A stretch of DNA of 64,000 bases from an uncultured virus (IMG/VR IMGVR_UViG_3300033475_000017) (Duplodnaviria; Heunggongvirae; Uroviricota; Caudoviricetes), in IMG/VR virus record IMGVR_UViG_3300033475_000017. One strand, written 5' to 3'. The position numbers and the translations under genes were made by a program. Under the pieces are notes generated by a model. That model was not told the DNA's origin. It was given only the letters and a program-made list of their open reading frames with translations, and did no database searches. Of the stretch, positions 1 through 33,817 are shown piece after piece; the stretch's first letter is position 1, and each line of letters starts with the position of its first letter.

Positions 1-671
1 CGGCGTCCAACGTGGCCGCCAATGCGCTGATCGTCATCGCTTCGCCGCTGCCTGGCATCAACACCGTGACGAACCCAGCACCGATCACCAATGGCGTTGA
101 CGCCGAGACGGATGCGGCGTTCCGAGCCCGCTTCGTGCTCTATCTGGGCACGCTGGCCAAGGCGACCAAATCCGCGATCGTCGCCGCCGCGGCCGGCGTG
201 CAGCAGGGGCTGCTGATCAATCCGGTTGAGAACGAGAACCCGCAGGGCGTCACGGTCTCTGGCAGCTTCACGGTGTTCGTAGACGACGGCTCGGGCGACC
301 CGCCGACCAGCCTGATCGACAACGTTTTCACCGCGATTGACGCGGTACGCGCGTTCGGGGTCCAGGCGTTTGCCGCCGGCCCGAATGTGACGACGGCGAC
401 GATCGGGCTGCTGATTCGTGTGGCAGAGAATTTCGTGACAGCAACGGTGATCGCCGCCGTCCAGAATTCGATCGCGGCGTCGACAAACCAACTGGTCGCC
501 GGCGAGACGCTGTATGTCAGCGCGATCATCGAGGCCGCATTGTCGGTGCCAGGGTGCGCGGCGGTGAATGCCCCCACGGTGACGATCAACGGCACCGCTG
601 CTGACTTCACGCCATCCGCCGCATTTGAGATTCGCACGAGCGTGCCGAACATCGCCGTCGGCACATACTGA
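1..671 (+). CDS. Baseplate J-like (wedge) protein, C-terminal part; truncated by window start
   Basis: NG.DAETDAAFRARF motif and VRAFGV motif typical of baseplate J; followed by fibre genes. Confidence 0.85.
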   Translation, partial: ASNVAANALIVIASPLPGINTVTNPAPITNGVDAETDAAFRARFVLYLGTLAKATKSAIVAAAAGVQQGLLINPVENENPQGVTVSGSFTVFVDDGSGDPPTSLIDNVFTAIDAVRAFGVQAFAAGPNVTTATIGLLIRVAENFVTATVIAAVQNSIAASTNQLVAGETLYVSAIIEAALSVPGCAAVNAPTVTINGTAADFTPSAAFEIRTSVPNIAVGTY

Positions 672-687
672 TCCAGGGAGCCGATCG

Positions 688-1287
688 ATGACATCGCTGA
701 CCACGTACTTGGCTGACAAGCTCATTGATCATTCCAATGGCGTCACCGCATACGCGATGCCGACGGTGTGGATAGCACTGATCCGCGCCACAGCCGGCCA
801 GTCGCCGCGATCCGCCGCAGTGACATCCGGCCAGACCACGGTGCCGGCGACGCCCAACGGGCACATGTATCGCTGCTCGGCATCGACCGGCAACACCGGG
901 AGCGCGGAACCGACATGGCCGACCACACCCGGCGGTACGGTGACAGATGGCGGTGTGACCTGGACCGAAATGACGCCAGACTTTCAGGCGAACAACACCA
1001 ACATCACCAGCAATGAGGCGAACTATACCGGCTATGCGCGGGCGGCGCTCGCCGGCCTGATGGGCGCTGCGGCGAACGAGAGCGCGTCGAATTCCGCAGC
1101 GATCGGCTTCCCGGCCTGCACAGGTGGGACGAATGCCATGGGCGGTTGGGTGTCGTACGATGCTTCGACGGCTGGGAATGCGCTGAAGTGGGCAGTGGTC
1201 AACGCGCCGACCACAGCCCCGCTCGCCGTGTCCACCGGTATCACACCATCGTTCGCCGCCGGCGTGTTGACAACGCAGCAGTCGTAA
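688..1287 (+). CDS. Tail-associated protein with an inserted carbohydrate-binding-like module
   Basis: ATG at 688 after GGGAG; N-terminal 'YLADKLIDH..VWIAL' and 'E..YTGYAR' tail-protein pattern; insert 'HMYRC..TGSAEPTWPTTPGGTVTDGGVTW'. Confidence 0.65.
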   Translation: MTSLTTYLADKLIDHSNGVTAYAMPTVWIALIRATAGQSPRSAAVTSGQTTVPATPNGHMYRCSASTGNTGSAEPTWPTTPGGTVTDGGVTWTEMTPDFQANNTNITSNEANYTGYARAALAGLMGAAANESASNSAAIGFPACTGGTNAMGGWVSYDASTAGNALKWAVVNAPTTAPLAVSTGITPSFAAGVLTTQQS

Positions 1288-1300
1288 ACAGTCCGCGGCC

Positions 1301-2554
1301 GTGACGAACCTCGTCGCCAGTTACACACCGGGCGTAGAGCGGAATGACTTCGGCGAATATGCTGGGATGCAATTCAAGCCCAGCGTAGCAATGTTGGTGT
1401 CGCAGCTTGGTTGTCGAATGGCGACTGGCAATACCAGCATGACCGTCGTCTTGACCGACGTGACTGGTGCCACAATTCTAGCATCTGCTGTGGTCTCTTT
1501 CTTAGGCGGGACGGTCGGCAATTTCTACTATGCGCCGATTAGTCCGATCACCTTGGCATCTGGGACGGCGTATTGTCTTTTCGCCGAAGTGTCCATCGGC
1601 GGCCCGATGTGGGCGGACTCTGGCCCGGTCACGCTGAACAACGCTACCGCCGTGGCGGCTGCTGCCGAAGATAATCTTGGCGGGACTTTTTTACAAAATC
1701 CCAATGAGTCCTATGTGGGCGTCGATCTCGTCATCGGAAGCACTGGCAACCTAACCGGCACCGCCGTTGCCACATCCACCGCGACAGGCATCCTATCCGG
1801 TAAGGGCGCGCTGACCGGAACCGCGACCGCTACGTCAACGGCCGGCGGCGCACTGGCCGGGCGCGGCGCACTGGCCGGGACGTCGACAGCAACATCAACA
1901 GCCACAGGGGCCCTCACCGGCCGCGGCGCTATAGCTGGCACAGCCACCGGAGCATCCGCCGCCGCTGGCATCCTGACGGGGCGCGGCGCGCTATCCGGCA
2001 CGGCTGTTGCGGGCTCATCAGCAACCGGTGTGCTGACGGGATCGACTGGCACCAGGCCCCCTGTCATTCCGGCACCAGTTTCACCGATGTTGCGAGTGCT
2101 ATCCGTTTCGGACATGGTGCGGGTCGTAGCTGTGTCCTCGGTTGCGCGTGTGGTAGAGGCGCCTGTCATGTCAACAGTCACACCGATCCGCCTGCCCAGC
2201 ATGATCCAGGGGTCAAACGACACCCGCGGCATCGATACGTTCCCATCGCTCCGGATCGAGGGCGATACGGTGGTGTCGATCACGGGCATCACGGTGACCC
2301 GACGGGATGGCACAGCAACGGGCGACAACGATCTAAAGATCACACCCCAGGGCTTTGCAGCGCCATGGATCGCCGCCAGCCCGAACCCCAATGCCAACAG
2401 CGCGCTGACGGTGGTGAACTGGTGGCAGGGGGCCGGCGCGTCGATCGCGGCCGCGGGTGCGGTGGACTATGAGCTGCAGGTGTCGTTTCTGACCACGGCC
2501 GGGCGGCCGCTGATATACACCGCCTACCAGCTTGTTTCGCCAACGCTGGGATAA
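1301..2554 (+). CDS. Tail fibre/adaptor protein: DUF4082-like N-domain, 20-aa tandem repeats, C-terminal adaptor domain
   Basis: GMQF...PITLASGTAY pattern; about five G/A/T-rich repeats; location in baseplate cluster. Confidence 0.6.
   Translation: MTNLVASYTPGVERNDFGEYAGMQFKPSVAMLVSQLGCRMATGNTSMTVVLTDVTGATILASAVVSFLGGTVGNFYYAPISPITLASGTAYCLFAEVSIGGPMWADSGPVTLNNATAVAAAAEDNLGGTFLQNPNESYVGVDLVIGSTGNLTGTAVATSTATGILSGKGALTGTATATSTAGGALAGRGALAGTSTATSTATGALTGRGAIAGTATGASAAAGILTGRGALSGTAVAGSSATGVLTGSTGTRPPVIPAPVSPMLRVLSVSDMVRVVAVSSVARVVEAPVMSTVTPIRLPSMIQGSNDTRGIDTFPSLRIEGDTVVSITGITVTRRDGTATGDNDLKITPQGFAAPWIAASPNPNANSALTVVNWWQGAGASIAAAGAVDYELQVSFLTTAGRPLIYTAYQLVSPTLG
1741..2045 (+). repeat. ~60-bp (20-aa) coding tandem repeat, about 5 copies ((I/A)L(S/T/A)G(K/R)GAL.GT....S.A.G)
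   Basis: Visible in translation of 1301..2554. Confidence 0.85.
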
Positions 2555-2559
2555 GCGCC

Positions 2560-3330
2560 ATGGCATCGACGCCCACCATCATCCCGACACTGACGCCGGC
2601 ACAGTTCGCGCAGCGGCTGGGCGCGCTATTCCCAGACGGCTGGGCCAGTGCCGATGCTGTGAAAGGCGGCGCGGCGTTCGCGTTCCTGTTGGCTCTAAGC
2701 CAGGGCCTGACGGCTGTGCTCGGCCAGGTGCAGTATGCCGACCGGGCGGTTCTGGTGGGGACCGAGACGGCGCCAGAGCTGGACCTTGCGGCACAGGATT
2801 TCTATGGCAGCGGGATGCCGCGGCCGCCGGGCATGTCGGACGCCGCCTATGCCAACCAGATCCTGTCTGGCCTGTTCCGATCGGCGGCGACCCGAGCTGC
2901 CCTGTCGGCGGCGCTGGCGGCGCTGACCGGCAGCGTGCCGCGGATGATTGAGCCATGGAACCCGGGCGATACTGGCGCGACGGATGCGGTCAGTTTCCTG
3001 GACGTGGACACGATCAACAACCCGATGCTGGTGTCAGGCGAGGAACGATATACCGGGTTCATCGAGACGGCGCCCGCCGCCGGCATCGCGCCGCTGTCGG
3101 GCAACGCGGTCCCTACGCTGGATGATGGGCTGTGGATCGATGTCGCCGGCAGCCTTGTGGCCGACATCGAAAGCGGCTCTGCCAGCAGCATCTACGCCCT
3201 GATCAATCAGATCCGCGCATTCGGCATCACGATCGGCGTCAAGATCGTGGGCGCCAATTCGTTGCCAACACCAGCACAGGTAGCGATCTACGACGAGTCC
3301 CGATATAACACGGGCGTCGTTTACGGCTGA
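2560..3330 (+). CDS. Baseplate wedge protein (gpI/gp48-like)
   Basis: 'LDLAAQDFYG..MPR..GMSDAAYA..I' motif; lies between baseplate J and tail fibre. Confidence 0.7.
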   Translation: MASTPTIIPTLTPAQFAQRLGALFPDGWASADAVKGGAAFAFLLALSQGLTAVLGQVQYADRAVLVGTETAPELDLAAQDFYGSGMPRPPGMSDAAYANQILSGLFRSAATRAALSAALAALTGSVPRMIEPWNPGDTGATDAVSFLDVDTINNPMLVSGEERYTGFIETAPAAGIAPLSGNAVPTLDDGLWIDVAGSLVADIESGSASSIYALINQIRAFGITIGVKIVGANSLPTPAQVAIYDESRYNTGVVYG

Positions 3331-3349
3331 ACAACGTTCGGGGCCCACT

Positions 3350-4738
3350 ATGAACCGCAGCATATGGTACTCGCAGCAACAGTGGCGCTCGTTCGACATC
3401 ACGGCATTTGAACACGATGTGCTGATGGCGCTCGCTGCGACCACGCAAGAACTGCTGGGCAGCACAACGACAGTCATCGCCGGAATTTCAGCGACGCAGA
3501 CCAGCCCCGCGTCGCTGACCATCAATCTGTCCGGCGGGAATATCTACCAGTTGGCCGATGCCGATGCGGTCGCTGTGGGCACGATCCCACAAGACACCAC
3601 CACGATCATGCAACAGGGCGAGTACGACGGCGGCCAGCTCACATTCAGCGCGGCCAGCATTCCGGCGGGGCAAAGTCAGTATTTCCTCGTGCAAGCACAG
3701 TTCAGCCAGTCGGACGTGGTGCGAAGCGGTGACCCGAACGGAGGCGTGTCGCCGTTCTACAACACCGCGAACCCCGCCCAACCGCTGAACGGGCAGGGCG
3801 GTCTTGGGAATGTTTCGCCGAGTGAACGGCAGGGGAAGTGTATCGTCCAGGTCATTTCTGGCGTGGCTGCCACCACTGGGTCTGAGACGCCGCCCACGCC
3901 AACGGGCGGCTGGGTGCCGCTCTACCTGATCGTCCTGACCAACGGCCAGACACAGATCACCAACGCCGAGATCCTGACCGCCGGGCCGAGCGTCGGTGTC
4001 AATGTGCCAACCAACTATCCCTTTGCACCGTTTCTTGCCGGGCTGCTGAACAGCCACCACAGCGGCAATCCAGGGCAGGCACCGAAGATCAATCTGGCCA
4101 CCGAGGTACAGGGCGTGCTGCCGGCGGCGAACGTTGCCAAGTCGGGAGGTATGCAGGCATTCACATCGACGGGAAATTTAACCGTTCCGCCGAATATATT
4201 CGCGGTCGAATACGAAGTATGGGGCCCTGGCGGCGGTGGCGGCGGTTCGCTGGGATCGAACAGCGGCGGTGCAGGAGGCAGCGGCGGCGGATATTGCAGA
4301 GGCGTTGCATCAGTCACGCCGGGGCAGGTGATCCTCGTGACGATCGGCACACCAGGCGCGGGCGGCACAACCACCCCAACCAATGGCGGAAACGGCACCA
4401 CATCAAGTTTTGGACCGTTTGGCTCTGCGACTGGCGGCGGTGGCGGCGGGGCTGGAAATGGCGTCGTGTCGGTCTCGGTGGGCGCTCCCGGAAACGGCGC
4501 CGGAGGCGCGGTCACCATCCAGGGTTCTTTGGGCACATTCCCAACAGAACCAGTATCGGGCACGATCAGCGTCGGCCAGGGCGGGTCGGCATTTGGCACC
4601 CCGGCCAATTTGCAGAGCAACACGACGATTGTTAGCAATGGTGTGGCCGGGGTATTCCCGGGTGGCGGCGGCTGCGGCGGTGCTCTAGGTGGTGCTGGCG
4701 GCGCCGGCGCCGGCGGTCTGTGCGTGGTGAAGTGGTAG
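3350..4738 (+). CDS. Tail fibre protein with glycine-rich C-terminal domain
   Basis: 'GWVPLYLI.L.NGQT.I' anchor motif; 'FTSTG.LTVP...WGPGGGGGG' glycine-rich domain. Confidence 0.8.
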   Translation: MNRSIWYSQQQWRSFDITAFEHDVLMALAATTQELLGSTTTVIAGISATQTSPASLTINLSGGNIYQLADADAVAVGTIPQDTTTIMQQGEYDGGQLTFSAASIPAGQSQYFLVQAQFSQSDVVRSGDPNGGVSPFYNTANPAQPLNGQGGLGNVSPSERQGKCIVQVISGVAATTGSETPPTPTGGWVPLYLIVLTNGQTQITNAEILTAGPSVGVNVPTNYPFAPFLAGLLNSHHSGNPGQAPKINLATEVQGVLPAANVAKSGGMQAFTSTGNLTVPPNIFAVEYEVWGPGGGGGGSLGSNSGGAGGSGGGYCRGVASVTPGQVILVTIGTPGAGGTTTPTNGGNGTTSSFGPFGSATGGGGGGAGNGVVSVSVGAPGNGAGGAVTIQGSLGTFPTEPVSGTISVGQGGSAFGTPANLQSNTTIVSNGVAGVFPGGGGCGGALGGAGGAGAGGLCVVKW

Positions 4739-4790
4739 GCGTGGCTCTGGCCAGCACCTGACGCTGTTCCTTTCGCATAGGGGACGAAAC

Positions 4791-5219
4791 ATGTTGTCGC
4801 TTTTCAAATCCGTGGGTAATGGGCTTGGACCCTGGGAGACCCACCACATGACGCAGGAACGGGACCAATTCAACAGCCTGGCCGTCGCATGGGCCGGTGT
4901 TGGCCTTGCCGCTCTGGTGGCACTCGGCACACTGGCCAGCGCCTATTACGAGACCAAGACCAAAGTCGAAGTCACGGGCGTTGTCACGACGGATGACATC
5001 GCCAAGCTGGCCAAGCAGGGCGAGGATCTGACCAAATCGATCAACGCGCTCAACCTGCAGATCGCGCATATGCCGACTACAAGCGCGCTGGAGAATTTGG
5101 CGGCCCGCCTCGATCAGCACACCGGCCAGATTGCGGATCTCTACAATATCACGACCGGGCTCAGGCATGATCTCGACAACCGCGTGCCGTTACCGATGTA
5201 CCGGAACCCGCGGAATTGA
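4791..5219 (+). CDS. Membrane-anchored coiled-coil protein (possible i-spanin or holin)
   Basis: One hydrophobic segment followed by heptad-rich helix; overlaps downstream lipoprotein gene. Confidence 0.5.
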   Translation: MLSLFKSVGNGLGPWETHHMTQERDQFNSLAVAWAGVGLAALVALGTLASAYYETKTKVEVTGVVTTDDIAKLAKQGEDLTKSINALNLQIAHMPTTSALENLAARLDQHTGQIADLYNITTGLRHDLDNRVPLPMYRNPRN

Positions 5220-5458
5220 CCCGGGCGCTCGCCCTCGCGCTGCTGCTGGCGGGCTGTTCCGCGCCTGTGCCACCGGCGTTTCCCGACTGTCCGGCACCTG
5301 TTGCGACACCGGCGGGTGTCCCGAAGCATCCGACCCGGGCACAGACCGACGCGCTGGAGATACGGGTTGAGCTGTGGGCCGAATCTCTACTCCACCGCGG
5401 CAATGCGTGCGCTGATGCGGTTGATGCGCGCGATGCGTGGATCAGGACGCTGAAGTAA
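5216..5458 (+). CDS. Small lipoprotein (possible o-spanin, Rz1-like)
   Basis: Lipobox LAGC, Pro-rich mature region, TTG start overlapping previous stop. Confidence 0.6.
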   Translation: MTRALALALLLAGCSAPVPPAFPDCPAPVATPAGVPKHPTRAQTDALEIRVELWAESLLHRGNACADAVDARDAWIRTLK

Positions 5459-5542
5459 TCGCCCGCGGTTTTGTGTCGCGCTGTTGCGCACCAATGTCCA
5501 TTTCTGATACGTGCCCATGTGGGAACCGAAAGGATCACCCGC

Positions 5543-6070
5543 ATGGCGGCGATCAATTACCAGACCGCTCTGAATTTCGTCTGGCAGCCCGGCTTCGATG
5601 ACCCCAGGGATGGATACCATGTCACGCCAGGCGACGCCGGCGGCGGCACCAAGGGCGGTGTTATCGAGGCCACCTGGGCGGCGGCCGTCGCCAAAGGGCT
5701 TGTGACGGGCACGCTCGCGGACGCGACAAACGACCAGCTTGCGGCCGTCCTGCGTTACGACTGCTGGGGCACCGCATGCGACACGTTGCGTGCCGGCGTG
5801 GACCTGATGCTGTTCAACGGGCGCATGATGTCGGGCGGTTACCCGCGAATCTTCCAGAAATGCCTAGGCGTGTATGTGGACGGCGACATTGGCCCGATCA
5901 CGCTGGCCGTGGCGGCGAAAGCGAACCCCGCCAGCCTGGTTGAAGCGCTGACCACCGCGCACCTGGCATACCTGTCGCAGCTTTCATCTTGGCCCGAGTT
6001 CAAGAACGGCTGGACGCACCGCTGCGAAGCCGCACAGACCGCTGCGATCGCACTGATCGCGCACAAATAG
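5543..6070 (+). CDS. Endolysin, glycoside hydrolase 108-like with C-terminal peptidoglycan-binding region
   Basis: D.GG.T..GV motif, 'VDGDIGPITL', 'F.NGW..R'. Confidence 0.8.
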   Translation: MAAINYQTALNFVWQPGFDDPRDGYHVTPGDAGGGTKGGVIEATWAAAVAKGLVTGTLADATNDQLAAVLRYDCWGTACDTLRAGVDLMLFNGRMMSGGYPRIFQKCLGVYVDGDIGPITLAVAAKANPASLVEALTTAHLAYLSQLSSWPEFKNGWTHRCEAAQTAAIALIAHK

Positions 6071-18229: not shown

Positions 18230-18415
18230 ATGAGCGACAAGCCGCTGTACCAGCCCTGGAAGCGTGGCGAGGACATGACCACCTGGGTCAACGTGCGCGT
18301 CTGGTCGGAACTGGACTGGCAGTATCACGACCTCCGATGGGCGATCCGGAATTGCGATACGCCCCCGGTATCAAACCCACCTTTCGCCTATGTCACGAGC
18401 GTCAAAATCTATTGA
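18230..18415 (+). CDS. Small hypothetical protein
   Basis: AGGGG RBS; ends at the promoter/operator. Confidence 0.5.
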   Translation: MSDKPLYQPWKRGEDMTTWVNVRVWSELDWQYHDLRWAIRNCDTPPVSNPPFAYVTSVKIY

Positions 18416-18427
18416 CGCATCGTGCGT
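18412..18427 (+). promoter_or_regulatory. TTGAC -35-like box overlapped by palindromic operator ACGCATCGTGCGT
   Basis: Sequence; the motif recurs at other intergenic sites. Confidence 0.6.
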
Positions 18428-18444
18428 GATAGTGTGATTGTTCC

Positions 18445-18534
18445 GACGCAGACACGGTTATCGTTCTGCTTTCTTGGACGTTTTCCTCCCTTAACTCGGG
18501 CGGCATGATCTCCGGATCTGCCGCCCTTCTTTTT
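18445..18534 (+). ncRNA. Candidate small RNA: 5' hairpin, U-rich linker with CCUCCC, intrinsic terminator
   Basis: GCAGA/TCTGC stem, TTTTCCTCCC linker, terminator hairpin. Confidence 0.45.
18498..18534 (+). terminator. Rho-independent terminator
   Basis: GGGCGGCA-T-GATC-TCCG-GATC-TGCCGCCC followed by TTCTTTTT. Confidence 0.85.
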
Positions 18535-18973
18535 GCCCTCGAAACCGGCTTGCCCCCGTAATCAATCCGTGCATGATGCGTGGCGTTGATCCGCAGCGCT
18601 TCCAGGCACTGGGCGGCATGTCGCAAAGCGGCATCATCAAGCCCGGGTTCTGGAGTGATCAGATTGCCCGAGGGGGATAGCTGCACCCGAAGGCGAATGA
18701 GTTGGGCAGGATACCCGGGGGCCGCGCCCCTACACCCAACACGCGGCAAGTGAGCGTACTAGTGACCGAAGCCTGGCGCCGGGAATAGGTTGCGCGAAAC
18801 CGAGGGGGTGGAAGGCCCCCACTCACCCCGGATCGGCTGCGACCGCCGCGTCAGCCTCCTGTAGCAGCTTGACGATCTCTTCTTCGCTTATGTCGTGCTC
18901 GCAGTGGATGGCGACGTGATCGAAGTAAGACGCCACCCGATGGCCGCATTGAGGGCACCTATCGGGTAGCTGG

Positions 18974-21495: not shown

Positions 21496-22440
21496 TCAGT
21501 CGGGCGTCACGTAGCTTGCGCGCTGCCACGCATCGATCGAGGCGATCCGGAAGCGGGCGGGAAACACCGTCGTTTCGTCCGGTGCGCCTCCCCAACTGGT
21601 CGGCCCGCCCACCGCCAGGTTGGCGATCAGGTAAAACGGCTTGTGCATGTTCGCCGGCGTGGGCTGGCTGAACACCAGCTTGCGATCGAGGTAGAACCGG
21701 ATCGTGGTCGGGCCCCAATCCACACCGTACTGGTGAAAGCCTTCCGAGAGGTCCACACCGGCGGCCGTGGCGTAGCCGATCTGGGTGGATGCGCTCGTGT
21801 CCGTCTTGTAGCTCGGGTCGTGCAGCGTGGTGTTGAGCACGTCGGTCTGGCTGCCCAGGATCTCCATCACGTCGATCTCGGGGGGCCATGTCATGTCGAC
21901 CGGCATCAACCAGAACGCCGGCCAGAGTCCGTCCCCTTTCGGCGCCTGGCCGCGCAACTCGAAATAGCCGTATTGCTGGCTGAACGGGTATGTGCAGAGC
22001 GAGCCCGACGTATAGGCCGGCGAGTAGCCCGCCGGCAGCCACGGCAGCACCGACGCGGGCGTAGGCTCCGCGGTGATCGTCAGGATGCCGTCGGCCACGC
22101 TGAACGGGTTGTAGCCGTCCACCGCAATCTCATCGCCGTTGGGATAGGGGGCGAGCTCGGAACTCAGCCATGAGAACCCCGGGTATGGCTTGCCGGGTGG
22201 CACGTAATCCGGCTCGCTGGGCGACGGCGTGTTGTGGATATAGCCCGCGGTCAGGTAGCAGCCTGGGTCGGTCAGAGCGGGCGGGGTCGCGCCAGCGGCC
22301 AGCGGGTAGACCTTGCCCACGTGCCATTCGGGCAGCGTGGTGAAGTCGGTCGACCAGCCCGGCCGGATGAAGTCGGAATCGTCCAAGGGTGCACCGAGCA
22401 CATCGCCCGGGGTGTTGATGGCCGTGGATGCTTCGGTCAT
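21496..22440 (-). CDS. Glycoside hydrolase family 16 (beta-glucanase-like)
   Basis: 'YGYFE.R', 'GLWPAFWL', catalytic 'EIDVME', 'FH.YG.DW'. Confidence 0.92.
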   Translation of the reverse strand: MTEASTAINTPGDVLGAPLDDSDFIRPGWSTDFTTLPEWHVGKVYPLAAGATPPALTDPGCYLTAGYIHNTPSPSEPDYVPPGKPYPGFSWLSSELAPYPNGDEIAVDGYNPFSVADGILTITAEPTPASVLPWLPAGYSPAYTSGSLCTYPFSQQYGYFELRGQAPKGDGLWPAFWLMPVDMTWPPEIDVMEILGSQTDVLNTTLHDPSYKTDTSASTQIGYATAAGVDLSEGFHQYGVDWGPTTIRFYLDRKLVFSQPTPANMHKPFYLIANLAVGGPTSWGGAPDETTVFPARFRIASIDAWQRASYVTPD

Positions 22441-22603
22441 CTCGCTGCCTCCGATTGGGTTGCGGCGCAGCATTACAGCGTGTCCGGTGCCTGGGTTATG
22501 TCGGGTCGATTTCCGTTTGTGGCGCTGGTGAAACCTCTGTTGCGTGATTGGACACAGGCAAACTCAAGGGAAAACCTCGCGTGGCAAACCGGGAAGGAAA
22601 ACC

Positions 22604-23068
22604 ATGGCAGACGATGCAGCCTCATGGACGATCAAATCAATGCCGATCGAGACGCGGCAACGCGCGGTGAAGGCCGCACATGCCCAGGATCAGACCATGG
22701 CCGAATGGATGGTCGACGCGGTAAACCGACTGGCAGACCAGCAGGCAGGAAACCAGGTCATACCGCCTGGCAAACCGGATCCCCAGCGGCGCGCGGCCGA
22801 GCTGCCGGACATAGACCTGCAGGGCCTGGCGAACGCCATCAGCGCCACCGTGGGAGCGATCCAGGCGGCAGGTGGCAAGCCACCGCTATCACTCGGCCGT
22901 GACGCATCGGCGACGCTACGGCTCTACATGCGAGCTGCGCGCGGCCTCCCCGAAAAGGAAAAGGGTCAAGGTCGGCGCCCCGGCAAACTTATCGGCCAAA
23001 ATGGGCAAACCGACCTCGAAAACAGGCAAACCTGGAGGGGCGTGCTGGTCGAAGAAGGCCAGGAGTAG
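22604..23068 (+). CDS. Putative ribbon-helix-helix DNA-binding protein
   Basis: 'WTIKSMP.ETR..A..AA....QTM.EW...AV'. Confidence 0.6.
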   Translation: MADDAASWTIKSMPIETRQRAVKAAHAQDQTMAEWMVDAVNRLADQQAGNQVIPPGKPDPQRRAAELPDIDLQGLANAISATVGAIQAAGGKPPLSLGRDASATLRLYMRAARGLPEKEKGQGRRPGKLIGQNGQTDLENRQTWRGVLVEEGQE

Positions 23069-23144
23069 CCGATAGTTTCGACTGCGGAAATGCGAACGGC
23101 CGCCCTTGACTGGACGGCCGCCCTCATGCCCTCATCATGGTGAT

Positions 23145-23630
23145 GGCCGACTCGATCTGGAAAATCGACTCGGCCGGGACCGGATCTCCGTGCGGGCGGA
23201 TCGGTCCCAGATGGGTGACACCGAAGCTATACGCTCCGAGTCGCCCGTTCAATCCCCCCAAAGCCCCAGCCGTGCCTAACGATCGCGCGAGCGGTCGATC
23301 CCTCATGTCGTCTTGCGCATTGGCGGGGCAGGGGGGCGAGAAAACCGGGGAACCGTGTAAGCTGCTGGTTCTAGACCCCGGGCGCTGCGACTGAGCTGGG
23401 AACGGCTAGGCCCCACGGCGTGAACCACCGGACGCACGAGCTATCGCCTGGCGCCTGCCCGTAGCAGGCCGCGCCAGTACGCTCGCCGGTCATACCAGGG
23501 GGCTCAGGCACAGCCGGTGCGTCCGGCCAAGGCTCGACCGCAATGGGGCCCGGCTCGGCTTGGGGACTCACCGGTCAGTAGCCCGTAAGGCATTGGCGAA
23601 GGCCGTGCCCAATGCGGACTGCTGACCACT
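23145..23630 (+). ncRNA. Candidate large structured non-coding RNA (~490 nt)
   Basis: Consecutive and nested stems, G-U pairs on the + strand, GCGA tetraloop, no credible ORF between convergent genes. Confidence 0.6.
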
Positions 23631-23640
23631 CCGAAACCCT

Positions 23641-23745
23641 CTCAACTTGAAGACTGACTGTTTTTCTTCTTCCCTTAAAATTAATATATTTAATAAAGCG
23701 TCTTCTTAATCTCTTTAGCCCTCTGGATACTTACTTCAATCACTG
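23641..23745. other. AT-rich tract (candidate unwinding element or origin)
   Basis: TTTTTCTTCTTCCCTTAAAATTAATATATTTAATAAAG in a GC-rich genome. Confidence 0.5.
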
Positions 23746-23752
23746 ACCTTGG

Positions 23753-23777
23753 AAGCCTCCCTATTACGGGAGGCTTT
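23753..23777. terminator. Hairpin AAGCCTCCC-TATTAC-GGGAGGCTT, probable terminator
   Basis: 9-bp perfect stem just past the stop of the leftward operon. Confidence 0.65.
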
Positions 23778-23787
23778 CTCTGGCCGA

Positions 23788-23949
23788 TCAGCTTTTCAGC
23801 CTCTCGCAAATGCGATCCAACGCAGCCGCAATCGCGAAGCTCGCGGCAGCCTGGGCAAAACTGGCTGCAGCTTCTTCGGAGCCAGCCCGCTGCGACAGTG
23901 CGATCATGGCGTCTGCCATTTCGCTCAGTGTGGCAGTTTCTAATGCCAT
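23788..23949 (-). CDS. Small hypothetical protein (53 aa, not in ORF track)
   Basis: MALETATLSEMADAM...CERLKS; start coupled to upstream stop. Confidence 0.5.
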   Translation of the reverse strand: MALETATLSEMADAMIALSQRAGSEEAAASFAQAAASFAIAAALDRICERLKS

Positions 23950-24332
23950 CAGCTTTTCATCCTCACGCAGATGCGGATTGCCTCGCGCAACGGCGTGAGC
24001 GTGTCGGCCAGCTCCGCGGCCTCCACCAGGCAGCCGAGCGCTTCGTTTTCGGTCTCGGCCGTGTTTGCCGCCCTGGACGCATCGCTGATGCGCAGCCCGC
24101 GAACGGCAAACTCGGTGATCAGCAACCGAATGTGCGAGCGGATTGGATCGGGCTGTTTGGGCTGCACAGCATCGACGGCGCCGGCCTTAAACCTGGCATC
24201 GTCGTTAACGATTGCGCTCAACCGTTCCAATTCGTGGGCAGCTTTGATCAGCACGTGACGCTGTGGGCCGGGTGGATAATCTGCCCGCAATAAGGCAATC
24301 AGAGCCGTTGTTTGGTTTCCCTGGTCGCTCAT
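23949..24332 (-). CDS. Hypothetical protein
   Basis: In-operon ORF. Confidence 0.55.
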   Translation of the reverse strand: MSDQGNQTTALIALLRADYPPGPQRHVLIKAAHELERLSAIVNDDARFKAGAVDAVQPKQPDPIRSHIRLLITEFAVRGLRISDASRAANTAETENEALGCLVEAAELADTLTPLREAIRICVRMKS

Positions 24333-24336
24333 TCCA

Positions 24337-24564
24337 TCAGTCCTCCTCTATGGGTTCGTCCGCCTCGTAGGACGGGTCGGTGAAAATCTCGGCGCGGAAA
24401 TGCTTGCGCCGCGTGCCCTCGCAGCGGTCGCACACGTAGCAGCAGAAGATACCTCGGGCGTCGACCAGGGGGCGCTTGCCCCCCGGGTGGTCACACTGTG
24501 CTGCAGGTTCGGCCTGGGCCGCCGTTATGACGGTGTGATCATCGATCACGATAAAGCGTGCCAT
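24337..24564 (-). CDS. Small Cys-containing phage protein
   Basis: 'DARGIFCCYVCD.C...Y.ADEPIEED'. Confidence 0.65.
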   Translation of the reverse strand: MARFIVIDDHTVITAAQAEPAAQCDHPGGKRPLVDARGIFCCYVCDRCEGTRRKHFRAEIFTDPSYEADEPIEED

Positions 24565-30825: not shown

Positions 30826-31166
30826 CCGCGATCCCGTGTGCGCGCCTACCAAAGCGCACCGGCCGGGCTTTCTAAACGCAGCAACCGCCCGGTGGTAACA
30901 CCCGCCGTGCACCGATGCTCCGACCAGCCTGCGTGACGGGCAACTGCAAACCGGGGAGAGAAACCGCCGGTGAAGACCCGCCACACCATGCGACCGCATG
31001 GCCGAAAATCCACCAAACGACCAGCTTATTCCAACCACGCCCAAATTCTGGGGAACCATTTAAGGAGGGGCGCACATAGACCTGTGCGCAGCACGCCGTA
31101 TCGCCTCCATCCAGCGCGTCAGCGCGTGGCGATCTCTTCCAACCTCAACGCCACCACCATCTAGCC

Positions 31167-31579
31167 AACCCTCCCACCAGACCGACCAGCCACACACAGG
31201 CGCGCACGCGCGCTCGCCGACAACAACCCGCATCAGCCGATACAGGCCGATCCACGATCGAAACCCTCCACAAACCAGGGCAGACGATCGAATTTATCAA
31301 TCGAAAACCTCCCACACCACGCAATCGCGGACGCCAGTTCGCGAGTGCCGCGAGGTCCAGCGGCGCGGTAGCCGCTGGTCGGCGTCAGCCGAAACCCTCC
31401 AGCAGAAACACATGCGCAGCATCCGAAAACCTCCCGCAATATCAGCGCGCAAACCCTCCCCGAAAACCTCCACGATCAGCGCTGAACCCTCCCCAGCGCT
31501 TCAAACCCTCCAGCTTGCGAATTTGCGCAATTACGCAAACTCAACCCTCCATGATCAGCCATTCAATCAAAACCTCCCC
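31167..31579 (+). repeat. Eleven dispersed direct repeats AA(A/C)CCTCC in a C/A-rich non-coding tract
   Basis: Copies near 31167, 31261, 31304, 31392, 31426, 31451, 31463, 31485, 31503, 31543, 31569. Confidence 0.8.
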
Positions 31580-31884
31580 AATCAATCGGAATTTCCGATC
31601 AACGATCGATCGACCCGCTCTATCAGCTATCCCCAATTCAACATCGGAGAAACCAATCAATCGACCAACACTGATCGGAAATGTGAATTGGTCCCGTGGC
31701 TTCTCTCTCATCCCATGAGGCAATCCAAAAACACGCTCGTCATCACCGGGACGCTGAGACGGCAAACCGCGGGCAAACCAGCCGCCGAAACGGGCAAACC
31801 TGACCGTGAAGCAGCCGACTGGCACGGTACCCACGTGCGCGGGCGCGAAATCGCGGCGGATCGCAGCGCCGGCGTCGGGCGCGG

Positions 31885-32526
31885 CTATGTCGGGCGGCAG
31901 ATGCGGCTGATCGCGTCCAGCGAAAGGTTCAGCTTCAGAGCGGCCTTGATCGCGCGCAGCGACTCGCCTGAGGCGTGGCGCATCCTTATGCGCTCGCACA
32001 TGGCTTGCTGCTGATCATCGGGGTGCAGCATGCCAGCGACCACGCGATAGCCGAACGGAACCTTGCCACCCAGATAGGCCCCCCGCGCTCGCTGGTCTGC
32101 TTTGACGTCAAGTATGCGCTCGCGTGTCCGATCGCGCTCGGCTTCAGCCACGGCTGCCAGGATGGCGAATACCAGCTTGCCTATGCCGTTCCCCGTCACG
32201 TCGCCGCCGAGATCGATCATGTGCAGCGCTATGCCAGCGGTCTGCAGGTCCGACAGGACTGCGAGTGCGTCCAGCGAAGATCGAAACATGCGGTCTAGTT
32301 TTGCGGTCAGGATGATGTCGCCACGTCGCACGCAAGCTAGGAGGCTGGCACCTTCGGGCCGCTGGCCAAGTGGGACGGATCCCGATACGCCACGGTCAAC
32401 GAAATCGGTGTCGACCTTCCATCCTTTCATCAGCGCATAGCCTGCCATCATGCGGTGCTGAACATCCAGGCTTTCACCATCGTCAGCCTGGCGTGCGGTG
32501 CTGACGCGAGCATACGTGTAAATCAT
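31885..32526 (-). CDS. Serine recombinase (resolvase/invertase family)
   Basis: 'YARVST..Q', 'D.GVSG', 'RP', 'KLDRMFRS', 'AEAER...RER'. Confidence 0.92.
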   Translation of the reverse strand: MIYTYARVSTARQADDGESLDVQHRMMAGYALMKGWKVDTDFVDRGVSGSVPLGQRPEGASLLACVRRGDIILTAKLDRMFRSSLDALAVLSDLQTAGIALHMIDLGGDVTGNGIGKLVFAILAAVAEAERDRTRERILDVKADQRARGAYLGGKVPFGYRVVAGMLHPDDQQQAMCERIRMRHASGESLRAIKAALKLNLSLDAISRICRPT

Positions 32527-32668
32527 GAGCAAAATCCTATCTGTATGGTTGCTCGCAAGTGTCGTGTTGTAAGTGGCCCTAATGCAAGCAGACAGATCGG
32601 GCGACAGACACGAAAAAGCCGGCTCGGTGTGAACCGGCCGGCTTGTCCGTAGAACCGCTTGGGAGCGG

Positions 32669-33817
32669 TCAGGCCATGGCTTGCGCCATGATCTTCGCAC
32701 CAGCTTGCTCATAGGCGATACGCACGTCCTGGTGCGGTATGGACCGCGCCACGCTGGTGATGCCTTGCACGTAGTCAAATGGCGTTTCGGCCGCGTGGCC
32801 CTCTTCCGCCACGATGCGGGCCAGGATCTTGTTTGACTCGGCCGGGCCGAAACCCTGCAGTCCCATGAACCGGAACCGATCTTCGTCAGAGCTGGTGATG
32901 CGCGCCTGCTTCATGGCCTTGAGATCGTGTTCCAGACCAGCGGCAGAGCTATCCACAAAGCCGGTAAGCGCGGGGATCAGGTCACTGGCGAACCGGCCAG
33001 CCGCATGCTTCGTGTGCTTGATCGAAAAGCGGGAGAAGCCTTTCTGACCCCAAATGTTGCGGTTCTGGCAGACATAGCGGTAGAGGAACGTAGCCACGCC
33101 ATTGGAAACGCCACCACATTCCCCATTCCATGCGTAGAAGCCGCGATAGAAGAGGTCGGGCGAACCGTCCGGAAGAAAGCCAGCTTGCACGGGGTTTTGC
33201 TCGTCCACCAGGAACAAGAACACATCCCGATCCGATGCATACAGCGTGGTGGTTTCCGTTGTCGGGTCGACCGTCGGATAAATATCCGGACGGTTCGCCT
33301 CACGGAACGCGGTCGGGACGGTCCAACGGCCGTTGCCAGCGTCGACAACCGATTTGATGGCTTGCACCAGCTCTACATCCCAAATGCGGCCGTAGTTTTC
33401 GCCAGTGATGCCGCGCAACTCATGGCCAGCGGTCAGGGCCTGTATGCGGCCTGGTGCACGCTGCAAGCCATGGTCAAGGCAATCCGCGGCGAGGCTGGCC
33501 GGGAGCGTCCGGATGAAGGATGCGGGGGCTTGGATGGACTGGCAAAGCTGCTGAAACGCATAGTTTGTCGGGATCCATTCTTCCACGCGGCCGTTGTCGC
33601 GGGTGGCAAATGTCAGCTCGCCACCGTCATTGAGTGCGCGCAAGCTGCGCAGGTCCATAACCGTATCGGTCGACCGGTCACGCCGATCGAGGACGGCCGA
33701 CATGAGATCGTCAATGCTGGTATAGCGCTGGTCATTCGGCCGCGTGGCCCACTGGCGGGACGCCGTGCTGTCGACATTACGCTCGGCGATGGACTGAACG
33801 AGATTCAAGGCAACCAT
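32669..33817 (-). CDS. DUF932-family protein
   Basis: 'QW..RP.DQRY.S', 'PT..AF.QLC', 'YGRIWD.ELV', 'LYASDRDVFLFLVD', 'Y..VCQNRNIWG'. Confidence 0.8.
   Translation of the reverse strand: MVALNLVQSIAERNVDSTASRQWATRPNDQRYTSIDDLMSAVLDRRDRSTDTVMDLRSLRALNDGGELTFATRDNGRVEEWIPTNYAFQQLCQSIQAPASFIRTLPASLAADCLDHGLQRAPGRIQALTAGHELRGITGENYGRIWDVELVQAIKSVVDAGNGRWTVPTAFREANRPDIYPTVDPTTETTTLYASDRDVFLFLVDEQNPVQAGFLPDGSPDLFYRGFYAWNGECGGVSNGVATFLYRYVCQNRNIWGQKGFSRFSIKHTKHAAGRFASDLIPALTGFVDSSAAGLEHDLKAMKQARITSSDEDRFRFMGLQGFGPAESNKILARIVAEEGHAAETPFDYVQGITSVARSIPHQDVRIAYEQAGAKIMAQAMA

What the first reader, a model, noticed from the sequence alone, without database searches (positions are those of the whole stretch)
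23097..23745. ~490-nt densely structured non-coding element followed by an AT-rich tract: candidate novel large phage ncRNA or RNA-primed origin
Seen: about 700 bp without a credible ORF between convergent genes. On the + strand it folds into back-to-back stems: 23145-23175, 23176-23208, 23210-23249, a long C6/G6-closed stem 23254-23336 holding a GCGA tetraloop hairpin (23280-23297), and 23345-23381. A nested multiloop follows (CTGAGCTGGG/CCCGGCTCGG, GGCCCCA/TGGGGCC, CCGGACGCAC/GTGCGTCCGG, CTGGCG/CGCCAG), then 23573-23627. Mismatches are mostly G-U on the + strand, which suggests selection at RNA level. A TTGACT box (23106) lies upstream and a U-rich/AT-rich tract downstream. Known: phages carry large ncRNAs of unclear function (ROOL, GOLLD), and ColE1 replicates from a ~550-nt folded primer RNA. 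Inference: since no initiator, primase or helicase is recognisable in the window, this could be a new ncRNA class or a Rep-independent, RNA-primed origin.
Basis: partly seen in the sequence, partly recalled or inferred. Interest (0 to 1): 0.85.

Follow-up and report, generated by a model that had tools for sequence, protein, structure and literature searches.

The report
Conserved noncoding hairpin block in phage
A gene-free, hairpin-rich stretch in an uncultured soil phage is kept almost unchanged over about 450 bases in one related phage, so it probably has a function, but whether it acts as an RNA or as a DNA site is still open.

Summary
Window 23069-23787 is gene-free between convergent genes of a complete ~70-kb myovirus-like phage genome. 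It folds better than shuffles on both strands (z -4.6 and -4.2). It is followed by the most AT-rich 100 nt of the window (31% GC). No Rfam family, tRNA or tmRNA matches.

New here: a related phage in two soil metagenome runs keeps only 23272-23724. That block has about 4% substitutions and no indels in its GC-rich part, while third codon positions of the neighbouring gene differ by 29%. The 5' hairpins (23097-23271) are replaced there by other sequence.

The RNA-specific claims fail or stay open. G-U pairs are equal on both strands (23 vs 23). None of the 13 known substitutions is compensatory, and they do not spare predicted pairs. No promoter candidate is conserved. No expression data were available.

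The origin reading is weakened. The block has no iterons or DnaA boxes, and a clear iteron array lies 8 kb away (31167-31577).

Verdict: a genuine, conserved, orphan noncoding module. Odds: noncoding RNA about 0.35, recently exchanged spacer 0.30, DNA-level site including an R-loop origin about 0.25. Moderate interest.

The parts
22604..23068 (+). Upstream gene. It encodes a 154-aa protein whose N-terminus looks ribbon-helix-helix-like (my reading of the sequence; no family hit).
   Evidence: ATG at 22604 follows a GGAAGGA ribosome-binding site. A 51%-identical homolog is in IMG/VR contig L004. In the Logan relative, 17 of 23 listed differences fall at third codon positions. No Pfam or PHROG hit.
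23069..23787 (.). The whole gene-free gap between convergent genes.
   Evidence: ORF lists. No codon-phase GC signal. No protein matches for the three longest ORF translations at E<=1, apart from one hit at E 0.9.
23097..23271 (.). Variable 5' hairpin array: 23097-23120, 23145-23175, 23176-23208, 23210-23249, and the 5' arm of 23254-23336.
   Evidence: Fold z -3.85 (+) and -3.58 (-) for 23097-23340, 0 of 200 shuffles as stable. Not kept in the related phage, where 23031-23272 is replaced by 587 other letters.
23272..23640 (.). Conserved GC-rich core. It holds hairpin 23280-23297 (GCGA loop), hairpin 23345-23381, the long imperfect hairpin about 23391-23564 with a faster-evolving tip 23444-23538, and hairpin 23573-23627.
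   Evidence: Logan contigs of runs X1 and X2 cover 23272-23724 with 24 other letters and no indel before 23669. That is 13-20 substitutions per 369 nt, against 17 of 58 third codon positions in the neighbouring gene (Fisher p 6e-9 to 4e-7). Substitution phases are 5/4/4, so the block is not coding. Fold z for 23385-23630 is -3.27 (+) and -3.56 (-). For the whole core it is only -1.99 and -1.55.
23641..23740 (.). AT-rich tract, conserved up to 23724 but with small indels.
   Evidence: Lowest-GC 100 nt of the window, at 31%. The relative has deletions of 8-9 nt at 23669, 1-nt indels at 23680-23710, and 4 substitutions. The only promoter-like match, CTGACT-16-TAAAAT at 23654-23681 (+), is broken by those indels.
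23752..23785 (+). 9-bp GC-rich hairpin (AAGCCTCCC / GGGAGGCTT) followed by TTTCTCT. It is terminator-like for plus-strand transcripts only.
   Evidence: Inverted repeat I18. It aligns to the terminator hairpin of an unrelated sRNA model at E 3.1, which is not significant. It did not pass the terminator scan's T-run rule. It lies outside the block shared with the relative.
23788..24332 (-). Two small downstream genes (53 aa and 127 aa) ending the minus-strand operon 27359-23788.
   Evidence: Translations. GC3 is 0.73 for 23949-24332. The two share a 28-nt repeat at their 3' ends. No family hits.

Best explanation
Window 23272-23724 is a discrete, selectively kept or recently exchanged non-coding module of an uncultured ~70-kb soil phage. 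My most likely reading is that it specifies a non-coding RNA.

On that reading, the plus strand is transcribed downstream of the small ribbon-helix-helix-like regulator gene. The transcript would be either its long 3' extension or a separate transcript. It would run through the GC-rich hairpins (23280-23297, 23345-23381, about 23391-23564, 23573-23627) and the AT-rich tract, and end at the terminator-like hairpin 23752-23785. The RNA would act in trans or as a processed 3'-UTR fragment.

Shown here:
- The stretch is non-coding.
- It folds better than shuffles.
- It has no known RNA family.
- It has sharp block-wise conservation, much higher than that of the adjacent gene.

Inferred only:
- That it is transcribed.
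- Which strand is transcribed.
- That the fold matters.
- Any target.
For: - Non-coding: no codon-phase signal; substitution phases 5/4/4; no protein similarity for its three longest ORF translations.
- GC content is 63-73%, as high as coding DNA. That is unlike ordinary promoter or operator spacers.
- Folding: z -4.55 for 23097-23640, and -3.27 for 23385-23630, with 0 of 100 and 0 of 200 shuffles as stable.
- Conservation: in the related phage, 23272-23640 has 13-20 differences per 369 nt and no indel. The neighbouring gene has 28 per 195 nt, with 17 of 58 third positions changed. The flanks on both sides are replaced.
- The gene order regulator gene then block is kept in the relative.
- Plus-strand hints: a GCGA tetraloop at 23287-23290; the loop GAAG at 23598-23601 becomes GAAA in the relative; both changes in hairpin 23573-23627 fall in unpaired plus-strand positions; the only terminator-like hairpin nearby is oriented for the plus strand.
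- No rival DNA-site hallmark was found in the block.
Against: - There is no direct evidence of a transcript.
- The minus strand folds as well as the plus strand, and G-U pairs are equal at 23 vs 23.
- With the one homolog, 0 of 13 known substitutions is compensatory.
- On the plus strand 5 of the 13 break predicted pairs, 2 keep them by wobble and 5-6 are unpaired. The minus strand gives the same picture.
- The relative's core folds 10 kcal/mol worse. 77% (+) and 80% (-) of random same-type substitution sets are at least as stable.
- Three transitions in stems (23444, 23473, 23518) are tolerated only on the minus strand.
- The conserved core taken alone has weak z, -1.99 and -1.55.
- The strongest hairpins (23097-23271) are not conserved.
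- Promoter-like sites on either strand of the AT tract are broken in the relative (minus-strand sites by my reading).
- The terminator-like hairpin failed the scan's rule and lies outside the shared block.
- High identity could simply reflect recent recombination.
Confidence: 0.35

Rival explanations
1. Mosaic spacer without a function of its own. A piece of DNA was recently exchanged between two phages by recombination. It sits where two transcription units converge, and its hairpins are incidental or serve only as generic 3'-end or termination barriers.
For: - The substitutions are indifferent to the predicted structure on both strands.
- G-U pairs are symmetric.
- The block has sharp boundaries with unrelated flanks, as in phage mosaicism.
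- No homolog was found anywhere else: 0 of 60 relatives, and only chance-length hits in 400 family genomes and 400 class genomes.
- No match in 50,697 phage and 72,556 plasmid records.
- Only the identical contig was found in IMG/VR.
- Three of 92 other windows of this phage fold with z <= -3.5.
Against: - Phage genomes rarely keep 700 nt of useless DNA.
- The GC-rich part has no indel at all, while the AT tract next to it has several.
- Substitutions are clustered: 9 of 13 lie in 95 nt, scan-statistic p 0.02. That leaves 274 nt with 4 changes, which looks like uneven constraint.
- Folding exceeds all 100 shuffles over 544 nt. The phage's other convergent junction (18420-18840) reaches only z -1.7.
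Confidence: 0.3
2. DNA-level replication element. The genome's most AT-rich tract would serve as the unwinding element, and the GC-rich block upstream would be transcribed into it. An RNA-DNA hybrid would prime replication, as with ColE1 RNA II or T4 oriF/oriG. This would give a phage with no recognisable initiator a Rep-independent origin.
For: - The AT tract is the lowest-GC 100 nt of the window.
- The tract is conserved in composition but tolerates indels, as expected for an unwinding element.
- Strand-symmetric hairpins fit a DNA-level role.
- HMM scans of 110 ORFs found RecT, exonucleases and a RuvC-like protein, but no initiator, primase, helicase or polymerase.
- R-loop origins are known in T4 and ColE1 (passage read in PMC12599619).
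- In another phage (L004), the homolog of the upstream gene sits about 1.1 kb before direct repeats (my reading) and an O-like initiator gene.
Against: - The block has no iterons.
- It has no DnaA box with one mismatch or fewer, no CtrA or IHF consensus site, and only background-level two-mismatch DnaA hits.
- No conserved promoter feeds the tract.
- A textbook-looking iteron array is a better origin or centromere candidate. Eleven of the window's 12 AAMCCTCC sites lie in 31167-31577, where 1.9 are expected in the whole window.
- ColE1-type origins are known from enterobacterial plasmids (recalled).
- No RNA family matched.
Confidence: 0.12
3. Another cis-acting DNA site, such as a recombinase, packaging or regulator-binding site built from imperfect palindromes.
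For: - Conservation of primary sequence without structure-sparing substitutions.
- Many inverted repeats.
- The phage carries a small serine recombinase gene at 31885-32778.
- A candidate DNA-binding protein is encoded next door, and GGCAAAC heptads cluster around that gene.
Against: - The GGCAAAC heptads stop at 23031; none lies in the block.
- The recombinase gene and the terminase gene are 8 and 18 kb away.
- There is no tyrosine integrase on the contig: 8 matches in the genome, none on C222.
- No part of the block matches the host-bin genome, so there is no attB-like identity.
- 370 nt is far larger than known recombinase or operator sites (recalled).
Confidence: 0.13
4. A decayed gene or a patchwork of gene fragments.
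For: - GC content is coding-like.
- One 21-27-nt match on the minus strand corresponds to a conserved RWFTPWG motif of a glycosyltransferase-like phage protein family.
- One 37-nt match on the plus strand corresponds to an ALAKAVP motif inside a 380-aa ORF of an unrelated genome.
Against: - A profile of 13 family members matches only 16 residues (E 0.011). That match was pre-selected by my 16-mer search.
- The two matches are on opposite strands.
- There is no codon-phase signal.
- A pseudogene should diverge at least as fast as synonymous sites, but the block is about 7-fold slower.
- No protein hits.
Confidence: 0.05

Closest known systems
ROOL and GOLLD, large ornate RNAs often found in prophages
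   Same: A large, heavily paired non-coding stretch in a phage genome with no known function. It matches the size class of several hundred nucleotides. ROOL averages 581 nt and is often found in prophages (passages read in PMC5737381).
   Different: - No match to any Rfam model, even at E<=10.
[quoted passage not shown] Here the fold is a row of simple hairpins, the window has no tRNA, and there is no covariation.
- The host group is Alphaproteobacteria-like: a GcrA homolog is present. ROOL/GOLLD are known mainly from Firmicutes and relatives (recalled).
RNA-primed origins: ColE1 RNA II, and T4 oriF/oriG promoter-plus-unwinding-element origins
   Same: A GC-rich foldable stretch of a few hundred nt is followed by a strongly AT-rich tract, in a genome without a recognisable initiator. 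R-loops initiate replication at T4 origins and ColE1 (passage read in PMC12599619).
   Different: - No conserved promoter was found upstream of or in the tract.
- No antisense RNA I-like family or any other family matched.
- A separate iteron array exists at 31167-31577.
- Function is untested.
Phage 'morons' and 3'-UTR-derived or island-encoded small RNAs
   Same: A self-contained block sits between two transcription units, moves between related phages as a unit with different flanks, and lies directly after a small regulator gene.
   Different: Classical morons carry a protein gene with its own promoter and terminator (recalled). Here there is no ORF, and neither a conserved promoter nor a canonical terminator could be shown.
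Single-strand origins (sso) of rolling-circle plasmids and minus-strand origins of ssDNA phages
   Same: Long imperfect hairpins of 150-200 nt in non-coding DNA that act as folded single strands and are primed by RNA (recalled).
   Different: Those elements are strand-specific and belong to small rolling-circle replicons with a Rep nickase. No Rep was found among 110 ORFs scanned. The hairpins here are strand-symmetric. This is resemblance from recall only and was not tested.

Membership tests
Any Rfam family (including ROOL, GOLLD, RNAI, tmRNA, introns, riboswitches) | Covariance-model score at or above the curated gathering score | tested here: not met
   There were 0 matches at gathering in the whole window. 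In 22900-23900, 5 matches had E 0.52-8.7 and scored 12-21 bits against cut-offs of 42-75. All lie at 23537-23874, and four of the five lie outside the GC-rich core.
ROOL/GOLLD-like large ornate RNA | Multistem junctions and pseudoknots supported by covariation | tested here: inconclusive
   Only one homolog is known, at about 95% identity. It shows 0 compensatory changes among 13 known substitutions. The predicted fold is a row of hairpins.
ROOL/GOLLD-like large ornate RNA | Frequent location near tRNA genes in prophages | tested here: not met
   No tRNA or tmRNA was found in the 64-kb window.
Structured functional RNA in general | Substitutions spare or compensate base pairs; strand-specific G-U excess | tested here: not met
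   The relative's core folds at -169.7 against -179.7 kcal/mol here. 77% (+) and 80% (-) of random same-type substitution sets are at least as stable. G-U pairs number 23 vs 23. Power is low: one homolog, and up to 7 of its differences were not listed.
Structured functional RNA in general | Folding energy below dinucleotide shuffles | tested here: met
   z -4.55 and -4.22 for 23097-23640. z -3.27 and -3.56 for 23385-23630. For the conserved core 23272-23640 as a whole, only -1.99 and -1.55.
ColE1-type RNA-primed origin | Promoter about 500-600 nt upstream of the origin driving the primer RNA, plus an antisense RNA I | tested here: not met
   TTGACT at 23106 has no -10 partner in the promoter scan and lies in the non-conserved part. 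No RNAI-like match.
T4 oriF/oriG-type origin (promoter plus downstream unwinding element) | AT-rich unwinding element directly downstream of an active promoter | tested here: inconclusive
   The AT-rich tract is present and extreme. The only promoter-like site (23654-23681) lies inside it and is disrupted by an 8-9-nt deletion in the relative. Promoter activity is not testable here.
Iteron/DnaA-type origin | Direct repeats (iterons) and/or DnaA boxes next to the AT-rich tract | tested here: not met
   No direct-repeat family lies inside 23272-23740. No DnaA box with one mismatch or fewer; 2 two-mismatch hits against 1.2 per kb background. An iteron array lies elsewhere, at 31167-31577.
attP of a temperate phage | Adjacent integrase and a core identical to host DNA | tested here: not met
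   No tyrosine integrase on contig C222; all 8 genome matches are on other contigs. The serine recombinase gene is 8 kb away. There is no second match of the region in the 6.2-Mb bin.
Protein-coding gene or pseudogene | Open frame, codon periodicity, third-position bias of substitutions, protein homologs | tested here: not met
   Longest ORF is 85 aa. Phase spread is 0.03-0.13. Substitution phases are 5/4/4. No tblastn match at E<=1 except one at E 0.9.
Intrinsic terminator cluster | GC-rich hairpin followed by a T run | tested here: not met
   The scan found 0 terminator-like sites in 22400-24400, against a shuffle mean of 1.8. The hairpin 23752-23778 has only a weak TTTCTCT tail.

The most novel reading that the evidence does not exclude
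The conserved GC-rich block is transcribed into the genome's most AT-rich tract and leaves a persistent RNA-DNA hybrid that primes DNA synthesis. That would give a 70-kb tailed phage with no recognisable initiator, primase, helicase or polymerase a Rep-independent, ColE1/T4-oriF-like origin that travels between phages as a 450-bp module.
Probability: 0.1. Interest if true: 0.75.

Novelty: new member of a known kind. Interest (0 to 1): 0.35.

Why it matters
If the block is a functional RNA, it would add an orphan class of about 370-450 nt to the short list of large phage-borne non-coding RNAs, this time from soil Alphaproteobacteria-type phages. Its exchange as a unit between phages would mark it as a non-coding 'moron'.

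If it is a DNA-level replication element, it would show how a large phage without recognisable replication genes starts copying its DNA.

At present it is a well-delimited target: 453 nt with known boundaries and a known variable tip, suitable for a simple deletion and RNA-mapping experiment. It is not a demonstrated new mechanism.

Tried and rejected
Homolog searches that found nothing useful:
- blastn against phages and plasmids: no match.
- Own genome: only the element itself.
- 60 relatives, including 34 of the same genus: 0 matches.
- 400 same-family genomes: 27 with 23-49-nt hits scattered over different parts of the query, which I judge to be chance.
- 400 class genomes: one 37-nt hit inside an unrelated 380-aa ORF.
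- GTDB genome-contig scan with an 18-mer: 7 loci, all limited to 18-20 nt.
- IMG/VR scans with one 20-mer and two 16-mers: apart from the identical contig, nothing aligned beyond 27 nt in 108 loci.
- Protein-anchored scans with the upstream gene, the downstream genes, the DUF4942 gene and the terminase returned only the identical IMG/VR contigs. The exceptions were L004, which has the gene homolog but not the element, and a 1.5-kb metagenome contig that ends inside the gene.
- The whole L004 record (69.6 kb) has no match to the element and shares only three gene regions with this phage.
- Closest cultured phages have terminase identity of 44.6% or less. The upstream protein has none.

Expression: the run search listed no RNA holder, only two DNA soil runs of one study. 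Nothing can be said on transcription.

Pseudogene idea: the RWFTPWG and ALAKAVP matches are rejected as chance.

Type I toxin idea: none of the 16 ORFs of 20 aa or more looks hydrophobic by my reading.

Mobile-element idea: I saw no terminal inverted repeats or target duplications at 23272 and 23724. The boundaries are only as exact as an 80%-identity alignment allows.

Other:
- Scan notebook: nothing for this genome or sequence. A word search returned only unrelated genomes.
- The 458-aa protein next to the iteron array resembles DUF932 clusters, not a known initiator.

Full report
**Context**

The window is a circular permutation of one contig of a 6.2-Mb, 86%-complete metagenome bin. Places 11583-64000 equal C222:70929-18512, and places 1-6000 equal C222:12351-6352. 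By my arithmetic this implies a 70.9-kb contig whose ends overlap by about 770 nt, so it is a complete phage genome of about 70.2 kb.

The phage encodes:
- terminase, portal, scaffold, major head, tail sheath, baseplate J and endolysin;
- RecT, two exonucleases and a RuvC-like protein;
- a GcrA homolog and several DNA methyltransferases;
- a small serine recombinase.

Across 110 distinct ORFs scanned against PHROGs, most of them also against Pfam, no initiator, primase, helicase or DNA polymerase was recognised. No tyrosine integrase lies on the contig. The closest cultured phages share 44.6% or less terminase identity.

**The observation**

Window 23069-23787 (719 nt) lies between the stop of a plus-strand gene (22604-23068) and the stop of the last gene of a minus-strand operon (27359-23788).
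- It has no ORF above 85 aa.
- It has no codon-phase GC signal: spread 0.03-0.13, against 0.3-0.45 in neighbouring genes.
- It is nevertheless as GC-rich as coding DNA (63-73%).

Folding results:

| Stretch | z (+) | z (-) | Shuffles as stable |
|---|---|---|---|
| 23097-23640 | -4.55 | -4.22 | 0 of 100 each |
| 23097-23340 | -3.85 | -3.58 | 0 of 200 each |
| 23385-23630 | -3.27 | -3.56 | 0 of 200 each |

Against this phage's own background, 3 of 92 other 240-nt windows reach z <= -3.5. The other convergent junction (18420-18840) reaches only -1.7. The AT-rich tract 23641-23740 is the lowest-GC 100 nt of the window, at 31% against 39% for the next lowest.

Two details of the observation fail:
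- G-U pairs are equally frequent on both strands, 23 vs 23.
- The TTGACT at 23106 has no -10 partner.

**Known families**

No Rfam family reaches its threshold anywhere in the window. With permissive settings on 22900-23900, only five chance-level hits appear (E 0.52-8.7). There is no tRNA or tmRNA.

**Homologs**

DNA searches found nothing beyond chance in:
- phage and plasmid collections;
- the bin itself;
- 60 relatives;
- 400 family genomes;
- 400 class genomes;
- the GTDB contig scan;
- IMG/VR, which holds only an identical contig.

A phage carrying a 51% homolog of the upstream gene (L004) lacks the element. It is otherwise barely related.

**The one informative relative**

It came from laying Logan contigs of two soil runs from one study. 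A 13.5-kb contig and a 17.7-kb contig carry the following:

| Window stretch | State in the relative |
|---|---|
| 22584-22778 (first half of the upstream gene) | 28 differences in 195 nt |
| 23006-23031 | 26-nt piece retained |
| 23031-23272 | replaced by 587 unrelated letters |
| 23272-23724 | 24 differences; indels only from 23669 onward |
| beyond 23724 | unrelated sequence |

- In the gene, 17 of 23 listed differences are at third codon positions. That is 17 of 58 third positions, or 29%.
- In the GC-rich core 23272-23640, 13 differences are listed. At most 20 are possible, because 3 were not shown and 4 more may be counted around gaps. This gives 3.5-5.4%, with Fisher p between 6e-9 and 4e-7 against third positions.
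- The core differences show no codon phase: 5/4/4.
- Nine of the 13 lie in 23444-23538, the tip of the long hairpin (scan-statistic p 0.02). The remaining 274 nt carry 4.

The neatest hairpins (23097-23271) are lineage-specific.

**Is the fold what is conserved?**

Mapping the 13 substitutions on the predicted folds gives no compensatory pair on either strand.
- On the plus strand, 5 break pairs, 2 keep them by wobble and 5-6 are unpaired. The minus strand is equivalent.
- The relative's core folds at -169.7 kcal/mol against -179.7 here.
- 77% (+) and 80% (-) of random same-type substitution sets are at least as stable.
- Both changes in hairpin 23573-23627 fall in unpaired plus-strand positions, and one turns its loop GAAG into GAAA.
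- However, three stem transitions are tolerated only on the minus strand.

With one 95%-identical homolog the test has little power. It nonetheless gives no support for selection on RNA structure.

**Signals**

The only promoter-like site (CTGACT-16-TAAAAT, 23654-23681, plus strand) is broken in the relative by an 8-9-nt deletion. By my reading of the sequence, a possible minus-strand TTAAGA-17-TATTAA site is hit by a substitution and two 1-nt indels. The hairpin 23752-23778 followed by TTTCTCT is oriented for plus-strand termination. It fails the scan's T-run rule and lies outside the shared block.

**Origin reading**

- The block has no iterons.
- It has no DnaA box with one mismatch or fewer, and no CtrA or IHF consensus site.
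- Eight kb away, 11 of the window's 12 AAMCCTCC sites lie on one strand in 31167-31577. Only 1.9 are expected in the whole window, and 0 of 100 shuffles reach 12. The sites sit inside a C-rich, ORF-poor stretch next to the serine recombinase gene. This is a much more conventional origin or centromere candidate.
- R-loop origins do exist in T4 and ColE1 (PMC12599619, passage read).

**Coding-remnant reading**

Two short matches to protein motifs turned up: RWFTPWG on the minus strand and ALAKAVP on the plus strand. A profile of 13 family members extends the first match to only 16 residues, and that match was pre-selected by my own 16-mer. The second lies in an unrelated ORF. The three longest ORF translations have no phage protein match. 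A pseudogene would also not evolve about 7-fold slower than synonymous sites.

**Verdict**

This is a real, sharply bounded, conserved, non-coding module with no known family and no detectable relatives outside one soil phage lineage.

My odds are:
- non-coding RNA, plus strand slightly favoured: 0.35;
- recently exchanged spacer without its own function: 0.30;
- RNA-primed or other origin: 0.12;
- other DNA site: 0.13;
- gene remnant: 0.05;
- the remaining 0.05 unassigned.

ROOL/GOLLD membership is rejected. ROOL properties were read in PMC5737381; there is no model match and no tRNA. ColE1-type and iteron-type origin membership tests are not met.

Interest is moderate. The conservation contrast is a solid lead with clear next experiments, but no mechanism is shown.

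Noticed in passing
window 31167-31577 (within the ORF-poor stretch 30826-31700): Iteron array. Eleven of the window's 12 AAMCCTCC sites lie here, all on the plus strand; 1.9 are expected in the whole window. Several 12-20-nt direct-repeat families and ATCAATCG/GATCGA motifs are also present. The stretch is C-rich (GC skew -0.21) and lies beside the small serine recombinase gene. It is a likely origin, centromere or resolution region of the phage.
   Followed up: partly
window 22557-23031 and 31761-31799: GGCAAAC heptads cluster. Six of the window's 16 lie on the plus strand around the 154-aa gene: two before its start, and three at its 3' end spaced 22 and 21 nt. Three more lie next to the iteron array. 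The 26-nt piece holding two heptads (23006-23031) is kept in the related phage although the surrounding coding sequence has diverged. These may be binding sites of the ribbon-helix-helix-like protein.
   Followed up: partly
window 18404-18535: TTGACG...TAGTGT promoter-like sequence followed about 80 nt later by a clean intrinsic terminator (GGGCGGCA...TGCCGCCC plus TTCTTTTT). This is a possible ~100-nt small RNA or leader at the phage's other convergent junction. Windows 18241-18720 gave z -3.7 and -4.2 with 25 shuffles, but 18420-18840 as a whole gave only -1.7.
   Followed up: partly
whole window / contig C222: The window wraps around the ends of contig C222 (70,929 nt, with ends overlapping by about 770 nt by my arithmetic). 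It therefore represents a complete circular or circularly permuted phage genome of about 70.2 kb binned with an alphaproteobacterial MAG, not an integrated prophage with host flanks.
   Followed up: partly
window 23787-23814 and 23948-23975: The two small minus-strand genes downstream of the element (53 aa and 127 aa) share an 89%-identical 28-nt repeat at their 3' ends. Their protein tails are ...RICERLKS and ...RICVRMKS, which suggests a partial duplication.
   Followed up: no
L004 5170-6338 (IMG/VR contig, 69.6 kb with terminal repeats): In this otherwise unrelated phage, the homolog of the 154-aa gene lies about 1.1 kb upstream of a non-coding stretch with direct repeats (CTAGAAAGA.TTT, ACGGAGACGACCC; my reading of the sequence). 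A gene weakly matching replication initiation O-like PHROGs follows (E 1.9e-5). This hints that the gene family travels with replication modules.
   Followed up: partly
window 23145-23175: This hairpin carries GACTC (a GANTC methylation-type site) in both arms on the same strand, which produces a central C-C mismatch. Four GANTC sites lie in 23149-23569.
   Followed up: no
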